Shown: positions 10,545-42,150 of the stretch, one piece after another
How positions within the stretch are numbered: the first letter of the stretch is position 1
How the letters are laid out: the number at the start of each line of letters is the position of its first letter
NCBI GenBank assembly: GCA_017431725.1
Contig: JAFRKN010000003.1
Span: 25,912 to 89,911, forward strand
Reading direction: 5' to 3'
From: Candidatus Saccharimonadota bacterium
GTDB taxonomy: Bacteria; Patescibacteriota; Saccharimonadia; Saccharimonadales; Saccharimonadaceae
DNA length: 64,000 bases
Position numbers and translations under genes: made by a program
The notes under the pieces: generated by a model
What the model was told of the DNA's origin: nothing
The model's input: the letters and a program-made list of their open reading frames with translations, nothing else
Database searches by the model: none

Positions 10545-11507
10545 TTAATACCAAAAATTTTTCGGCAATTTATCGGCAATGCGACGATGAAATTCATAAT
10601 CAAACCCTTCCAACCTCTCTGGTTGAGAGTTTTTGGCAAAATATTTATTTCTAATTTCTTTAGCAGTCATCATCTTGCCTGGTATCAGTTGATATTTTTT
10701 ATAAAAGTTTAACCCTCTTTTATAATTTTTTGGTGGGAGTATTGCCATCGGCAAAAAATCACAATTAATTTCTGGATCTGAATAAAGTTTTAATGCAAGC
10801 ATTGACATTGTGGGAATAATTTCTTCTTGCTTTTCGAAAGCCTCCTCAGTTTTAAAAACCGTCGCCTGTCTAGTTGCTGAGGGGGCCACAAAAATTACCC
10901 CACCATTTTTTATCGCATCATGTGAAAGTTTTGTATAAATATCTCTGAACTCTTTTTTCAGGCGTTTTCCTTCTTCATAAAGCAGAGAGCCTTCTTTTAG
11001 ATTCATTTTTTTCCAAGTTGATGGGGTAATCGTCGGAGTTATAATAATTCCTAGACGTTTAATGCGATCAAAATTTGGCGCTAGAGCCTCGTACCAGGGC
11101 AAATTCACTGGAAAATACATTGGTTTATCGCCCATAATATCAATTTTCATAGTTAATATTCTGGCAATCTCGCCAAGCGAGGGATGATTAAAACCAATTA
11201 CTATACCATTTTCATTATCCTTTGGCATTCCGACATAACTACCAGGCGTGATTCTTGACAAAATTTTAACTAATTTTTTTCGTGCTGCTTTGTTATGTTT
11301 TTCTGGATTATTTTTTGGCCCCGTCGTACCAAAAAAATAATTAATTGCTGTATTGCAAGCTTTGCCAACTGGCACCATTTCTTTACGCAAATTTTCTGCC
11401 CCAAGTGTAGTTAATAAAGAGTAGTTTTCGTGTTGTATTTTGTCAATTATTTCTTCCGCAGATAAGTTTTTTAATTCACTTTTTTTAAAAATTTTCTTCT
11501 TTGCCAT
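10545..11507 (-). CDS. Putative lysophospholipid/glycerol-phosphate acyltransferase-fold protein
   Basis: GFNHPSLGE (HxxxxD/E block I) and FVAPSATR (block III-like). Start reassigned to ATG 11507, 7 nt after a TATAAT. Confidence 0.55.
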   Translation of the reverse strand: MAKKKIFKKSELKNLSAEEIIDKIQHENYSLLTTLGAENLRKEMVPVGKACNTAINYFFGTTGPKNNPEKHNKAARKKLVKILSRITPGSYVGMPKDNENGIVIGFNHPSLGEIARILTMKIDIMGDKPMYFPVNLPWYEALAPNFDRIKRLGIIITPTITPSTWKKMNLKEGSLLYEEGKRLKKEFRDIYTKLSHDAIKNGGVIFVAPSATRQATVFKTEEAFEKQEEIIPTMSMLALKLYSDPEINCDFLPMAILPPKNYKRGLNFYKKYQLIPGKMMTAKEIRNKYFAKNSQPERLEGFDYEFHRRIADKLPKNFWY

Positions 11508-11558
11508 AACAATCATTATAACACGAAAAAACGCCACTCTGGCGCCTTTTAATTCGAC

Positions 11559-11700
11559 TGGCTGGGGATGAGGGATTCGATTCGAAGAACGAGTCCTGCT
11601 TTTTGTGCATGCTCGTTAGAGCATGGCTGGGGATGAGGGATTCGACCGGAGCGTCAGCGACGGACGAGTCCTGCTTTTTGATGTTTTTGTGAAACAAAAA
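11559..11700 (-). repeat. Two exact 22-nt copies of the tRNA-Gln 3' end separated by motif-bearing units
   Basis: TGGCTGGGGATGAGGGATTCGA occurs at 11559-11580, 11624-11645 and 11701-11722. Both intervening units contain ACGAGTCCTGCTTTTTG. Confidence 0.95.
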
Positions 11701-11775
11701 TGGCTGGGGATGAGGGATTCGAACCCCCGAATGTCGGGACCAGAACCCGATGCCTTACCACTTGGCGAATCCCCA
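11701..11775 (-). tRNA. tRNA-Gln(CTG)
   Basis: Cloverleaf TGGGGAT/ATCCCCA, anticodon arm TCGGG-TTCTGGT-CCCGA, GTTCGAATC T-loop, encoded CCA. Confidence 0.97.
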
Positions 11776-11800
11776 ACGCGGAAATAATTATACCACAAGT

Positions 11801-14800
11801 CTATTCACTCCGCAACGCCTCAACTGGGTCTTTCTTTGAGGCGGCTCGAGCCGGGATTAAACCACCAATTAGTGTGAGTACAATCGATAATCCAACCAAA
11901 AACAAAGCCATTTTGGGATCCAACACAGCTGAAAGTGGTATATCGCCCGTAAAATAATGTAGAATCATATTTATTGGTGGAATTAAAAGATACGATATTC
12001 CTACACCAAATATTCCAGACAAAAAGCCAATAATAGTCGTTTCTGCATTAAAAATCGACGAAATATTATGTTTGCTTGCTCCAATTGCGCGTAAAATTCC
12101 GATTTCTTTAGTCCTTTCGTATACCGAAATATAAGTAATCACGCCAATCATAATTGACGAAACAACCAAAGAAATCGAAACAAACGCTATTAATACATAC
12201 GAGACTGCATCAACAATTGTTTTTACGGAAGACATTAAAACTCCCGTCGTATCAGTATAATCAATCACTTTATCTTCTTCTCCAAGCGAACGCATCGAAT
12301 CATTATAGCCATCTAGAAAATCAATAAATTTTGTTTTTCCATCAAAACTCGAAAAATAGAATGACAATTGCGTTGGATCGTTTAAATCCTGATATCCTAA
12401 AGCCGAAAGATTAGTCGCAAGCGTCGTCTTCTTCTTATTAAACATTGCCGTTACTACCCTCGAGAGTTCCTCTTCCGAAAAATTTAAACGAAAAGCCCCG
12501 ATAATTGCGTCTTGGTCTACATGAAAAGCTGAGGCAAAACTATTTGACAAATATGAAGTTAATTCTCCCACTTTCGTCAAAATTTCCTTTTTCATGATTA
12601 TTTCAGTTAGCGGTACCGCTATTGCATCAAAAGCCGTATTAAATTTGATTGAATCAAGTAGAGTTTCTGTCACCTGATTATAAATCATTGGCACAATCGT
12701 TATATCACTAGTTTCTACATCAAAACTAGGATTCATTGTTTGCGTCATTGCATAAGCCTGGATATAAGTTTCCAAAGTTCCAGATAATAATCCCTGATAA
12801 AGCATTTGTGCTTGCTCTGTTGGCAGATAATACAACATCTCAAATTCGCTGAAATCTTGCCGATTCAAAAACTCTGTCACTATTCCAGAAATTTCAGTTT
12901 TTTTGAAAGCCCCCTTTATTATCAACTCATTTTTCAAATTTTCTATCATAGTTTTGTACTTATCAACCAACTCATCTCTAATTGGCGATATATCAGCAGT
13001 AATATCATTGGCAATTTGGTTAATATATTCAGTGGTTTTTGCGGTAATTGTATTTTGGTTTATTGTCGTCCCGAAAGCTCTTGATAACGCCGCCTCATCT
13101 ATTGATACTAAATCCGAAAAGGCAAAATTAAAATTCTTTCCTTCTTCATCAAATCTTTTGCCAGAAAAAATATCTACTTCTGTATTATCGAGTTGCTTTT
13201 GAACAATTTCAGATTGGCCTGATTTTTCGATAATATGTTGAACCAATGAAGGTAAATATGCTATTCCACTTCCCGCTGATAGCATTTCTGAATTCATTAC
13301 CGCAACCCCCACGACGTGGAGTTTTTCTGCTTCATTATAAATAGAACGCATATAATTTTCATCTTCAGACATATTTTCATATATTTCATATTTCGTGTTG
13401 TATTTATATGTTTTAGTTGCGGGAATTAACCTTAAATCTACGTCTAGAAGATCCTCGTAAGTAAGTTCCAAAGGCTCATTATCAATTGCAACCTTTTCCC
13501 CACTCATAATTTTTGAGACAATCTCATTTAATTCATTAGAATTATGAAAGCCTAAAGAATATGTCAAAAGCTCCGAAATCTCATTCTTATTACTTAACAC
13601 GACCAACATTTCATTATATTTTTCTGGGTATCGCCCCGCTAAAATTTCGGTATCATTTTTTAAATTTTCAGATTCATATTGCCGAAATACCGAAGTCATA
13701 GTTGAATAATTTCTTAGTAGTGAAGTTTCCCCAATTAACGAAGTGAACATATTGCTCGGATTCATCTTCGCAATTTTTCCAGTCACATCCTCAGTATATA
13801 TTACCGGATCCACATTATATTCATATTCCATTATTCTGATATCATCTTGAAGATTTTGCCCGTGTATCTTTAAATATTTCGTAAAACTCGGCAAATCATT
13901 ATTCGAAACAGCTCCAAGCGTAGAAGTTAATATTTGATTTTCATGCAATTTATCATCATCATTTTTGCTATTTACATTGCCAGTTAAACTCAGTAAAATA
14001 CCAGAAACATCAGCTGATTCTTTTTGTAAAGCTAATGGATATGATCCCAAAGTATCTTGTTCTATTTTGTCAATATAATTTTGGAATCCAGTCGAAACTG
14101 CACTAATTAAAGCTATACCGATAATCCCAATCGACCCCGCCAAAGCTACTAAAATTGTTCGAGTCTTTTTTGTTAGTAGATTTTTGAGAGACAACAATAA
14201 GGCTGTCATAAATGACATTTTTGTTTTTTTGCTTTTGTTTTTTGCTTCAATTAAATCTAAATCAGTTTTAATTTTCCCGTCATAAGAGTTGGAGTCCGCT
14301 GTGATTTTCCCATCCTTAAGGTTTATAATGCGCGTTGCATATTTTTCTGCCAATTCCGGATTATGTGTTACCATTATCACCAACTTATTGCTAGCAATTT
14401 GCTTCAGTAATTTCATCACTTGTGTTGAGGTTTCTGAATCTAATGCTCCTGTCGGCTCATCCGCCAATAAAATATCCGGATCGTTTATTAATGCTCGCGC
14501 AATCGCCACGCGTTGCATCTGCCCACCCGACAATTGTGATGGTAGCTTATTTATATGTTCCTCCAAACCAACTTTCTTTAATACTTTCTTAGCACGACGC
14601 ACTGACTCACGTTTAGAAATACCCGAAAGCGTTAAAGCTAACTTTACATTGTTGAGAACTGTCTGATGCGGAATTAAATTATAAGATTGAAAAACAAATC
14701 CAATTCGATGGTTACGATAGGCATCCCAGTCTTTATCGCGAAATTTTTCGGTTGATTTTTCATTAATAATCAAATTACCAGAATCATAATGATCAAGCCC

Positions 14801-33497: not shown

Positions 33498-33532
33498 TTT
33501 TGTTATCCGATTAAATAAAAAAATAATATTGA

Positions 33533-33676
33533 AAGTAGGACTCGCTCGAAATAGTAGCGACAACCGATGCCCTGCTTTTTAATACACTTTCGCAAGAAAG
33601 TGGTGCTGGAAGTAGGACTCGATTCGAATGAAGTGAGAACCGATGTCCTGCTTTTTAATGCACTTTCGCAAGAAAG
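33533..33676 (-). repeat. Exact 22-nt and partial 12-nt copies of the tRNA-Tyr 3' end separated by near-duplicate motif units
   Basis: TGGTGCTGGAAGTAGGACTCGA at 33601-33622 equals 33677-33698; AAGTAGGACTCG at 33533-33544. Both units contain AACCGATG(T/C)CCTGCTTTTTAAT(G/A)CACTTTCGCAAGAAAG. Confidence 0.95.
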
Positions 33677-33761
33677 TGGTGCTGGAAGTAGGACTCGAAC
33701 CTACGAAGCCCGAAGGCGAGAGATTTACAGTCTCTTGTCATTGCCACTAGACGATTCCAGC
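33677..33761 (-). tRNA. tRNA-Tyr(GTA)
   Basis: GCTGGAA/TTCCAGC acceptor, AGAGA-CTGTAAA-TCTCT anticodon arm, long variable arm, encoded CCA. Confidence 0.97.
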
Positions 33762-37298: not shown

Positions 37299-37375
37299 GG
37301 GGCGTTAGCTCAGCTGATTAGAGCGCTACTATGGCATAGTAGAGGTCATGAGTTTGAATCTCATACGCTCCACCA
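37299..37375 (+). tRNA. tRNA-Ala(GGC)
   Basis: GGGGCGT/ACGCTCC acceptor with G3:U70, CTACT-ATGGCAT-AGTAG anticodon arm, encoded CCA. The D-loop has GA instead of GG and the T-loop has TTTGA instead of TTCGA, consistent with a compensatory A19-U56 pair. Confidence 0.93.
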
Positions 37376-37441
37376 AAAATGAAAAGCCAAGAATTTATTC
37401 TTGGGTTTTTATTTTTTAGGAGTGGCCTGAGATTACTTCGT

Positions 37442-37460
37442 AATCTCATACGCTCCACCA
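37442..37460 (+). repeat. 19-nt duplicate of the tRNA-Ala(GGC) 3' end
   Basis: AATCTCATACGCTCCACCA at 37357-37375 and 37442-37460. Confidence 0.92.
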
Positions 37461-42110: not shown

Positions 42111-42116
42111 ACATAG

Positions 42117-42150
42117 GAAGCGAGAACGAAAGTCTTGCTTTTTTGATGCA
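42117..42150. repeat. Copy of the tRNA-associated motif unit, inverted relative to the tRNA
   Basis: GAAGCGAGAACGAAAGTCTTGCTTTTTTGATGCA aligns with GAAGTGAGAACCGATGTCCTGCTTTTTAATGCA at 33630-33662. Confidence 0.75.

What the first reader, a model, noticed from the sequence alone, without database searches (positions are those of the whole stretch)
11551..11775. tRNA-Gln followed by a mini-array of its own 3' end
In transcript sense the layout is tRNA-CCA, 55-nt unit, exact 22-nt copy (TCGAATCCCTCATCCCCAGCCA), 43-nt unit, exact 22-nt copy, GTCGAATT, terminator. Each unit starts with a small hairpin right after CCA (TTTTTG-TTTCA-CAAAAA; TGCTC-TAAC-GAGCA), then carries CAAAAAGCAGGACTCGT, then a variable tail. 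The copies begin exactly at position 55 of the T-loop. The spacers are far too short to encode an integrase and resemble each other, unlike CRISPR spacers.
Basis: seen in the sequence. Interest (0 to 1): 0.85.

Follow-up and report, generated by a model that had tools for sequence, protein, structure and literature searches.

The report
tRNA-linked mini-repeats behind tRNA-Gln
Behind the glutamine tRNA gene of this tiny Saccharibacteria genome sit two short two-hairpin units, each ending in an exact copy of the tRNA's last 22 bases; they belong to a large uncatalogued family built like the long-known but unexplained 'tRNA-linked repeats' of E. coli.

Summary
It is not a one-off. I found 58 distinct arrays of the same unit behind at least nine tRNA species in Ca. 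Nanosyncoccus/Saccharibacteria MAGs and metagenome contigs, with 1-3 copies each and at least 4-6 where contigs break. The unit is: hairpin H, TGCAT, an A-run, then hairpin P2, whose 3' strand is the start of the tail copy. Both hairpins are supported by compensatory changes (13 of 18 pairs). A congener has the empty site, with the same terminator directly after CCA. Tail copies track their own tRNA (48:1). There were no hits on viral contigs and there is no adjacent integrase. By definition this is a 'tRNA-linked repeat' (TLR) array, as known in E. coli since 1978 (rtT/RttR). It is miniature, in another phylum, and matches neither Rfam RtT nor the rtT sequence. Function is unknown, as for most TLRs. 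The most likely reading is a co-transcribed tRNA trailer module, processed at each tail copy and expanded or lost by recombination between tails. This scan has flagged the same design before on other Saccharibacteria DNA.

The parts
11787..11795 (-). Extended -10 promoter-like element TGgTATAAT, 11 nt upstream of the tRNA 5' end
   Evidence: Read directly from the sequence. It is conserved in the congener locus L051. The consensus scan did not call it because there is no -35 element.
11701..11775 (-). tRNA-Gln(CTG) with encoded CCA; U1-A72, G73
   Evidence: ARAGORN; Rfam RF00005, 59.8 bits.
11684..11700 (-). Hairpin H of unit 1 (TTTTTG-TTTCA-CAAAAA), directly after CCA
   Evidence: The same H type (tttttgttgcacaaaaa) follows Gln, Val-TAC and Lys-CTT tRNAs in other MAGs.
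11646..11683 (-). Rest of unit 1: CATC linker, A5 run, P2 5' strand GCAGGACTCG (11665-11674), long loop tccgtcgctgacgctccgg
   Evidence: Homologous to the unit behind tRNA-Gln in L129.
11624..11645 (-). Tail copy 1: exact 22 nt, tRNA positions 55-76. Its first ~10 nt form the 3' strand of P2.
11610..11623 (-). Hairpin H of unit 2 (TGCTC-TAAC-GAGCA)
   Evidence: The H stems covary across 26 units.
11581..11609 (-). Rest of unit 2: TGCAC, A5 run, P2 5' strand GCAGGACTCG (11590-11599), short loop ttcttcgaa
   Evidence: The identical short loop occurs at Asn, Val-CAC and Lys units elsewhere.
11559..11580 (-). Tail copy 2: exact 22 nt
11526..11558 (-). Ancestral 3' flank: GTCGAATTAAAAG linker plus intrinsic terminator CGCCA-GAG-TGGCG-TTTTTT
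   Evidence: The same terminator follows CCA directly in congener G134 (locus L051), which is the empty site.

Best explanation
This is a miniature tRNA-linked-repeat (TLR) array. It belongs to a family specific to Saccharibacteria (Ca. Nanosyncoccus and kin). Each unit is 41-58 nt and two-hairpin, and is capped by a 21-22-nt copy of the resident tRNA's T-loop-to-CCA segment.

Shown: each unit lies between two tail repeats. Its second hairpin (P2) is closed by pairing an upstream strand with the first ~10 nt of the tail copy, which leaves the acceptor 3' strand plus CCA single-stranded. In this locus the two units sit between the tRNA's own promoter and the only terminator.

Inferred at the DNA level: units are gained, duplicated and cleanly lost by recombination between the tail repeats (unequal crossing-over or gene conversion). 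This keeps the copies identical to the resident tRNA.

Inferred at the RNA level: the array is made as a tRNA 3' trailer. Each T-arm-like P2 plus NCCA end is handled by the tRNA 3'-end maturation machinery, as proposed for E. coli TLRs, and this would release 65- and 77-nt CCA-ended RNAs. P2 would also keep the tail copy from competing with the true 3' strand while the tRNA folds.

The cellular role of the released RNA, if any, is unknown, as it is for most E. coli TLRs.
For: Anatomy.

Family: six units in G000, all behind tRNAs; 42 cognate arrays in GTDB genomes; 15 more in metagenomes; 58 distinct arrays in all, of which 49 have one copy, 7 have two and 2 have three.

Structure: RNAalifold gives two hairpins, with 13 of 18 pairs kept through changes on both sides. 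92.5% of cells are paired against 75.8% in shuffles. The covariation score is 0.476 against 0.183, reached by 0 of 500 shuffles, and slid controls are at most 0.17.

Empty site: L051.

Concerted evolution: at the 11 positions the search pattern left free, 56 of 60 copies are identical to the resident tRNA. Copies are closer to their own tRNA than to other species' variants in 48 cases against 1.

TLR definition and the processing idea: PMC8144298. I verified in K-12 that six exact 19-nt tail copies end the rtT units and that the annotated rttR 3' end coincides with the CCA of a tail copy. The Rfam RtT consensus closes with the same kind of helix, an upstream strand paired to the start of the tail copy.

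No terminator lies inside the array in the sense direction.
Against: Pairing is almost purely Watson-Crick (about 2% G-U), and after shuffle control neither strand is favoured (z -2.5 against -2.7; 22 G-T against 33 A-C oppositions). A DNA-level hairpin therefore fits the data as well as an RNA.

In L221 a unit that contains a complete terminator is repeated at least three times. Array growth therefore does not need co-transcription, and distal units there may not be transcribed with the tRNA.

How the conserved module reached nine different tRNAs is unexplained. Identical loop variants occur at different tRNAs.

One unit sits behind a non-cognate tRNA (L084), and some units have no tRNA nearby (L109, L114).
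Confidence: 0.5

Rival explanations
1. The two-hairpin module is a DNA recombination site. On this reading, the units are 'empty cassettes' stacked at the tRNA T-loop by a recombinase acting in trans, either site-specific as in tandem accretion at tRNA genes or on folded single strands as with integron attC. The tail repeats would be the att core and the RNA would be irrelevant.
For: The direct repeats start in the T-loop (position 55 or 56 in 34 of 36 units) and end at CCA, like att sites of the T-loop class. Presence or absence at the same tRNA varies among congeners, and there is a clean empty site. Arrays of at least 4-6 units exist. In three of the four arrays where a copy has decayed, the decayed copy is the distal one. 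Covariation is Watson-Crick only with no strand bias, and P2 has a conserved bulge and mismatch. Units behind full terminators are still duplicated. G000 carries a second, divergent Xer/integron-integrase-like tyrosine recombinase. Earlier notes of this scan describe gene-cassette arrays bounded by tRNA tail copies in other Saccharibacteria (unverified here, apart from the L110 island with an 8-nt tail remnant).
Against: No recombinase is adjacent to any array examined. The pattern does not occur on 2.9 million viral contigs. A 65-77-bp double-stranded circle is physically implausible as an intermediate. An element moving between tRNAs by T-loop crossover would have to carry the recipient's own tail. 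No gene-bearing cassette bounded by this module was seen; the L110 island is bounded by a different, 8-nt repeat.
Confidence: 0.22
2. The units are neutral by-products of replication template switching at the palindromic T-loop (TTCGAA/TCGA). The result would be a direct-inverted-direct triplication of the tRNA 3' region, later amplified by unequal crossing-over, with no function.
For: Each unit is an inverted partial tail copy (GCAGGACTCG approximates the reverse complement of the T-arm 3' half), a loop, and a direct tail copy. Lys unit 1 in G000 has a perfect 9-nt inverted copy, GAACCCTCG/CGAGGGTTC, at an alternative TCGAG site. H often reuses the first 5-6 nt of the native flank together with its inverted copy (L066, L074, L169). 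The junctions fall at the short palindromes TGCA and TTCGAA. E. coli rtT has the same inverted-plus-direct tail arrangement.
Against: TGCAT, the A-run and the loop sequences are conserved across nine tRNAs and dozens of species. This argues for common descent plus maintenance, not repeated de novo accidents. Compensatory changes in the inner P2 stem and in H involve bases that are not derived from the tRNA, which implies selection on pairing.
Confidence: 0.12
3. The units are antisense-oriented intrinsic terminators that shield the tRNA gene from convergent transcription.
For: On the opposite strand every unit reads hairpin P2 followed directly by C-TTTTT. The terminator of tRNA-Ala(CGC) in this window (42111-42150) is homologous to the unit in inverted orientation.
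Against: The gene downstream of this array is co-directional. Across 53 arrays, 30 are followed by a co-directional ORF or tRNA and only 23 by a convergent ORF. This reading does not explain why the full acceptor strand plus CCA is copied, nor why units stack.
Confidence: 0.06
4. The units are deletion remnants of full-size integrative elements (attL/attR scars), or an assembly artefact.
For: tRNA 3' ends are classic integration sites, and tRNA-Asn in L110 does carry a 3.4-kb island with a PemK-like toxin.
Against: The same 41-58-nt module with the same internal junctions recurs in 58 arrays, which random deletions would not produce. The module has covarying structure. There is no integrase fragment, and there are no viral hits. 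Independent MAGs and metagenome contigs from different studies show the same anatomy. In G000 the two spacers differ, so the assembly path is unique.
Confidence: 0.04

Closest known systems
E. coli tRNA-linked repeats (TLRs), including the 178-bp rtT/RttR repeats of tyrT-tyrV (Egan & Landy 1978; Rudd 1999; as summarised in PMC8144298)
   Same: The units lie directly behind a tRNA gene in the same operon, one to five per locus. Each ends in an exact copy of the upstream gene's 3' end through CCA. An upstream strand pairs with the start of the tail copy to close the unit. Function is unknown. I verified this in K-12 and in the literature.
   Different: The copy is 22 nt starting at T55/C56, against 18-19 nt starting at A58. 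The units are 65-77 nt against about 100-180 nt. The phylum is different. There is no match to Rfam RF00391 at E<=1 and no nhmmer similarity. The units have their own conserved H-TGCAT-A-run-P2 module. E. coli processing involves RNase E, which has not been shown for Saccharibacteria.
Tandem integrative elements at tRNA genes separated by partial tRNAs (tycheposons, 10.1101/2020.12.28.424599; accretion arrays)
   Same: There are direct repeats of the tRNA 3' part. The tRNA is kept intact. Elements stack at one tRNA, and presence or absence varies among relatives.
   Different: Those elements are kilobases long and encode (or derive from elements that encode) integrases and cargo. Here the 'element' is 43-55 nt, non-coding, structurally conserved and without any nearby recombinase.
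Integron attC arrays / CALINs
   Same: These are tandem arrays of imperfect hairpins of about 60 nt with bulged bases, and the pairing covaries.
   Different: The units have no R''/R' (GTTRRRY) core sites. There is no IntI: the G000 recombinases score 72-127 bits against a cut-off of 265. There are no cassettes between the sites. The repeats are copies of a tRNA end.
Functional tRNA trailers such as 3'ETS-leuZ (cited in PMC8144298)
   Same: A non-coding RNA segment is co-transcribed downstream of a tRNA and released by tRNA processing.
   Different: 3'ETS-leuZ is a single unstructured spacer acting as an sRNA sponge through Hfq. It carries no tail copy and does not form arrays.

Membership tests
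tRNA-linked repeats (TLR; operational class, PMC8144298) | Located immediately downstream of a tRNA or rRNA gene within its operon | tested here: met
   The units start at the base after CCA and lie before the only terminator.
tRNA-linked repeats (TLR; operational class, PMC8144298) | The 3' end of each repeat is identical (18-19 bp in E. coli) to the 3' end of the upstream gene | tested here: met
   Two exact 22-nt copies ending in CCA. 56 of 60 family members are exact at the positions the search left free.
tRNA-linked repeats (TLR; operational class, PMC8144298) | One to five repeats per locus | tested here: met
   Two repeats here. The family shows 1-3 per array, and at least 4-6 where contigs break.
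tRNA-linked repeats (TLR; operational class, PMC8144298) | Transcribed with the upstream gene and processed to a discrete RNA (shown for rtT and RrA/B/F) | not testable with these tools
Rfam RtT (RF00391), homologous family | Covariance-model score at or above the gathering threshold (45 bits) | tested here: not met
   No hit at E<=1 in the window or in 11 Saccharibacteria loci, while the E. coli control scores 133-137 bits. The nhmmer best E is about 0.5-0.8.
Rfam RtT (RF00391), homologous family | Closing helix between an upstream strand and the start of the tail copy, with the 3' NCCA end unpaired | tested here: met
   RtT consensus structure compared with P2.
Integrative-element att scars at tRNA genes | Integrase gene or fragment, or cargo, between or next to the repeats | tested here: not met
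   The spacers are 43 and 55 nt. The neighbours are an ABC permease and an unrelated gene. The genome's only tyrosine recombinases lie elsewhere.
Integrative-element att scars at tRNA genes | Direct repeat that is the tRNA 3' segment, starting in the T-loop or anticodon loop | tested here: met
   The copies start at position 55 or 56.
Integrative-element att scars at tRNA genes | The matching attP occurs on a phage or plasmid | tested here: not met
   0 hits in viral contigs. Plasmids were not searched.
CRISPR array | Identical repeats separated by unrelated spacers; cas genes or a leader | tested here: not met
   The spacers are homologous to each other (family D4, 91% identity). The repeat is a tRNA end.
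Integron attC / CALIN | R''/R' core sites and an IntI-type integrase | tested here: not met
   The unit boundaries are ...CCA, with no GTTRRRY. The integron-integrase models score far below their cut-offs.

The most novel reading that the evidence does not exclude
The H-TGCAT-A-run-P2 module is the folded recombination site of a recombinase-in-trans system that inserts and stacks cassettes at the T-loop of tRNA genes in Saccharibacteria. Target choice would be helped by base pairing between the P2 5' strand and the tRNA's T-loop/T-stem. On this reading the present array is two empty cassettes of an integron-like gene-capture system in organisms thought to have almost no mobile DNA.
Probability: 0.18. 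Interest if true: 0.8.

Novelty: new variant of a known kind. Interest (0 to 1): 0.55.

Why it matters
TLRs have been known in E. coli since 1978, and for most of them no function is known. Here the same design appears in an unrelated phylum with tiny genomes. It is reduced to a minimal form of about 45-55 nt plus the tail, occurs behind roughly 15-20% of tRNA genes, and has dozens of diverged copies that give clear covariation. This makes the open question of what tRNA-tail repeats are for, and how they arise, accessible by comparative and experimental work. It also matters for annotation, because partial-tRNA calls and 'att scars' in CPR genomes may be these units. Finally, it bears on how a streamlined genome tolerates exact 22-nt repeats of essential single-copy tRNA genes.

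Tried and rejected
1. CRISPR-like array: rejected, because the spacers are homologous to each other and the repeat is a tRNA end.

2. Phage attP: the full pattern has 0 hits on viral contigs.

3. Unit as the boundary of the 3.4-kb island in L110: rejected. That island ends in its own 8-nt tail remnant plus terminator, ahead of the pre-existing units.

4. Homology to E. coli rtT: Rfam and nhmmer are both negative. The shared 'GGATGAGAA...GGTTCGA' string in the long spacer behind tRNA-Gln(TTG) is not significant.

5. Strand assignment from folding energy: the raw energies favoured the antisense strand (39 of 46 units), but the effect vanished after a dinucleotide-shuffle control.

6. The idea that loop variants cluster by T-loop type: not supported.

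7. Antisense-terminator role: downstream orientation is not enriched for convergent genes.

8. My first fuzzy motif search was far too loose and uninformative.

Because of this I could not do the recombinase family searches in relatives, the phyletic correlation, the read-level copy number, the RNA evidence, or an Rfam scan of the C3 and C7 loci.

Full report
**Observation.** The region reads, in transcript sense (minus strand): an extended -10 element (TGgTATAAT, 11787-11795); tRNA-Gln(CTG) at 11775-11701 with encoded CCA; a 55-nt unit; an exact 22-nt copy of tRNA positions 55-76 (11645-11624); a 43-nt unit; a second exact copy (11580-11559); GTCGAATTAAAAG; and the terminator CGCCA-GAG-TGGCG-TTTTTT. 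The 22-mer occurs three times in the window and in the whole 752-kb genome, where none is expected by chance. The shared 17-mer CAAAAAGCAGGACTCGT occurs only in these two units.

**It is a family, not a curiosity.** I laid out the whole genome (49 tRNAs, 39% GC). Tail copies follow tRNA-Gln(CTG), Tyr, Lys(TTT) and Asn with the same kind of unit. They also follow Gln(TTG), Arg(TCG) and Ala(GGC) with longer or minihelix-like units whose 19-nt copies start at A58. All six motif-bearing units in the genome lie directly behind a tRNA, in its orientation, and are followed by that tRNA's own tail.

In 60 relatives the motif is at background level except for true units behind Tyr, Gln, Lys(CTT) and Val(CAC) in congeners. 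A pattern that left the 11 tail positions 63-73 free recovered 92 places in the GTDB species genomes. About half are in Ca. Saccharibacteria or Ca. Nanosyncoccus MAGs, mostly from ruminant guts, and the rest are chance hits in coding DNA of other phyla. Forty-two of these are arrays with the cognate tRNA upstream. An independent metagenome scan added 15 more.

In all there are 58 distinct arrays behind at least nine tRNA species: 49 with one copy, 7 with two and 2 with three. Arrays of at least 4-6 alternating units occur where contigs break (L070+L125 and L171). Among 'bystander' tRNAs in the fetched loci, 6 of 34 also carry some tail-copy unit. This is similar to G000, where 7-8 of 49 do.

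**Anatomy.** A unit is: CCA | hairpin H (5-6 bp, 3-5-nt loop) | TGCAT-like linker | A4-6 | G | P2 5' strand (N2 N3 GGRC, optional bulged A/G, TCG, then 3 more bp) | loop (3-4 nt up to about 13 nt, sometimes with its own small hairpin) | 3 bp | tail copy. The first ~10 nt of the tail copy (C56...N65) are the P2 3' strand. The acceptor 3' strand plus CCA stays unpaired.

On an alignment of 26 long-loop units, RNAalifold predicts exactly these two hairpins, with 13 of 18 pairs kept through double changes. With the explicit structure, 92.5% of cells pair against 75.8% in shuffles. The covariation score is 0.476 against 0.183 (0 of 500 shuffles reach it), slid controls are at most 0.17, and P2 is 98.4% paired. 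Covariation includes inner P2 pairs and H pairs that are not derived from the tRNA, so copying from the tRNA cannot explain it. G-U pairs are rare. After a shuffle control the two strands are equally structured, and wobble counts give no polarity. The data therefore cannot say whether the selected hairpin is RNA (and which strand) or single-stranded DNA.

**Gain, loss and homogenisation.** Of 30 congener tRNA-Gln(CTG) loci, 28 have no tail copy. One (G134, L051) has the same terminator directly after CCA that follows the array in G000, which is an empty site. Other species have different unit variants at the same tRNA. At the 11 positions the search left free, 56 of 60 copies are identical to the resident tRNA. 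Where a tRNA type has sequence variants between species, copies are closer to their own tRNA in 48 cases against 1. So the copies are either young or kept identical by recombination or gene conversion with the tRNA. Decayed copies are mostly distal (G000 Tyr unit 2, and the second copies in L110 and L122), though L072 is a counter-example. In L221 a unit that includes a complete terminator is repeated at least three times, so array growth is a DNA-level duplication that does not depend on co-transcription.

**What it is not.** It is not a phage attP, since the pattern has no hit on 2.9 million viral contigs. It is not the end of the 3.4-kb PemK-bearing island in L110, which is bounded by its own 8-nt tail remnant. 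It is not next to any recombinase. G000 has one Xer-type tyrosine recombinase and one divergent one, both elsewhere, and no serine-recombinase signature. It is not a preferentially convergent-facing terminator: 23 arrays are followed by a convergent feature and 30 by a co-directional one. No Rfam family other than tRNA matches.

**Comparison with the known.** Earlier notes of this scan on other Saccharibacteria DNA pointed to E. coli rtT and the 'tRNA-linked repeats', and I tested this myself. In K-12 the tyrT-tyrV locus has six exact 19-nt copies of the tRNA-Tyr end (from A58) closing 159-178-nt units. The annotated rttR RNA ends exactly at the CCA of a copy. Rfam's RtT model finds the E. coli units at 133-137 bits but finds nothing in the window or the Saccharibacteria loci at E<=1. 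An rtT nhmmer profile finds nothing significant. The RtT consensus structure nevertheless closes with a helix between an upstream strand and the start of the tail copy, which is the P2 principle.

PMC8144298 defines TLRs as 22 sequences at ten E. coli loci, one to five per locus. Each has a 3' end identical over 18-19 bp to the 3' end of the upstream tRNA or rRNA gene. The paper states that TLRs have no known function, that the rtT starvation claim was retracted, and that RrA/B/F are processed and bind Hfq/CsrA. It proposes that the repeated end is a processing signal. The present array meets every operational TLR criterion but is not a detectable homologue. I therefore file it as a new, miniature variant of a known kind.

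**Mechanism.**
- Shown: the anatomy, the conserved hairpins, the empty site, polymorphism between species, and identity of the copies to the resident tRNA.
- Inferred, moderately: arrays expand, contract and stay homogeneous by recombination between tail repeats.
- Inferred, weakly: in this locus the array is a tRNA 3' trailer in which each P2 plus NCCA end is treated like a tRNA 3' end, giving 77- and 65-nt CCA-ended RNAs, while P2 also sequesters the tail copy.
- Unresolved: how the module first arises at a tRNA and spreads among tRNAs. The candidates are a trans-acting recombinase using the folded module as its site, or template switching at the palindromic T-loop. The latter would explain the direct-inverted-direct arrangement, and the fact that H often consists of the first bases of the native flank plus their inverted copy.

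**Limits.** There is therefore no read-level confirmation of copy number, no RNA evidence, no recombinase phyletic test and no Rfam scan of the contig C3 and C7 loci.

Noticed in passing
window 33531-33761 (-): tRNA-Tyr is followed by two units of the same family (H = CTTTC-TTGC-GAAAG). The first tail copy is exact over 22 nt. The second is decayed (CGAGTCCTACTTtCAatAttA).
   Followed up: partly
window 37373-37460 (+): Behind tRNA-Ala(GGC), after a terminator, lies a minihelix-like unit: GGAGTG-gcc-TGAGATTA-cttcg-TAATCTCA-TA-CGCTCC-ACCA. It re-forms both an acceptor-like and a T-like stem and ends in a 19-nt tail copy from A58. Position 3:70 is A-U rather than the AlaRS identity pair G-U. Similar minihelices follow Ala(GGC) and Thr(TGT) in other MAGs.
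   Followed up: partly
window 42111-42150 (+): The intrinsic terminator of tRNA-Ala(CGC), GGAAGCGAGAACGAAAGTCTTGCTTTTTTGATGCA, is homologous to the class-A unit read on the opposite strand (TGCATC-AAAAAAG-CAAGAC-TTTCG-TTCTCGCTTCC). So the module also occurs inverted, without tail duplication, and there it serves as the terminator.
   Followed up: partly
L110:452-3835 (Saccharibacteria MAG JAFWLE01): A 3.4-kb island lies between tRNA-Asn and an 8-nt tail remnant (GGGAGCCA) plus terminator. It encodes a PemK/MazF-like toxin (PF02452, 1.9e-9), a 548-aa protein with an HELGH motif, and a 122-aa ORF overlapping the tRNA that had no Pfam hit. This looks like a different, short-repeat-bounded insertion system at the same tRNA.
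   Followed up: partly
L084, L109, L196; L114: Units carrying a tail ...GATCCACCA sit behind a non-cognate tRNA-Ile(TAT) or have no tRNA nearby. A Tyr-tailed unit lies next to HisRS with no tRNA within 8 kb, at a contig end. No tRNA with that tail was present in any fetched locus.
   Followed up: partly
G000 contig C3:32227-32408 (outside the window): tRNA-Gln(TTG) is followed by a 163-nt structured spacer and a 19-nt tail copy. The spacer contains GGATGAGAACCGTAGGTTCGACC, which is also present in L083. This resembles a tRNA variable-region/T-arm segment and, loosely, the GGATGAGAAGCTTCGACCAAGGTTCGA of E. coli rtT, but the resemblance is not significant by nhmmer.
   Followed up: partly
G000 contig C8:21613-22573 (+), about 3.3 kb before the window start: A second, divergent tyrosine recombinase of 287 aa: 116 bits to XerC and 72 bits to the integron-integrase subfamily, all below their cut-offs. 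It is present in a genome that also has a normal Xer-type enzyme.
   Followed up: partly
window 12088-12187 (-): A 24-nt inverted repeat (83% complementary, 36 nt apart) lies inside the ABC-permease gene. It gives weak below-threshold Rfam microRNA-model hits (28.8 bits) and is probably chance.
   Followed up: no
window 11505-11520 (-): The gene downstream of the array has a TATAAT hexamer only 7 nt before its ATG, which suggests a leaderless or near-leaderless mRNA.
   Followed up: no
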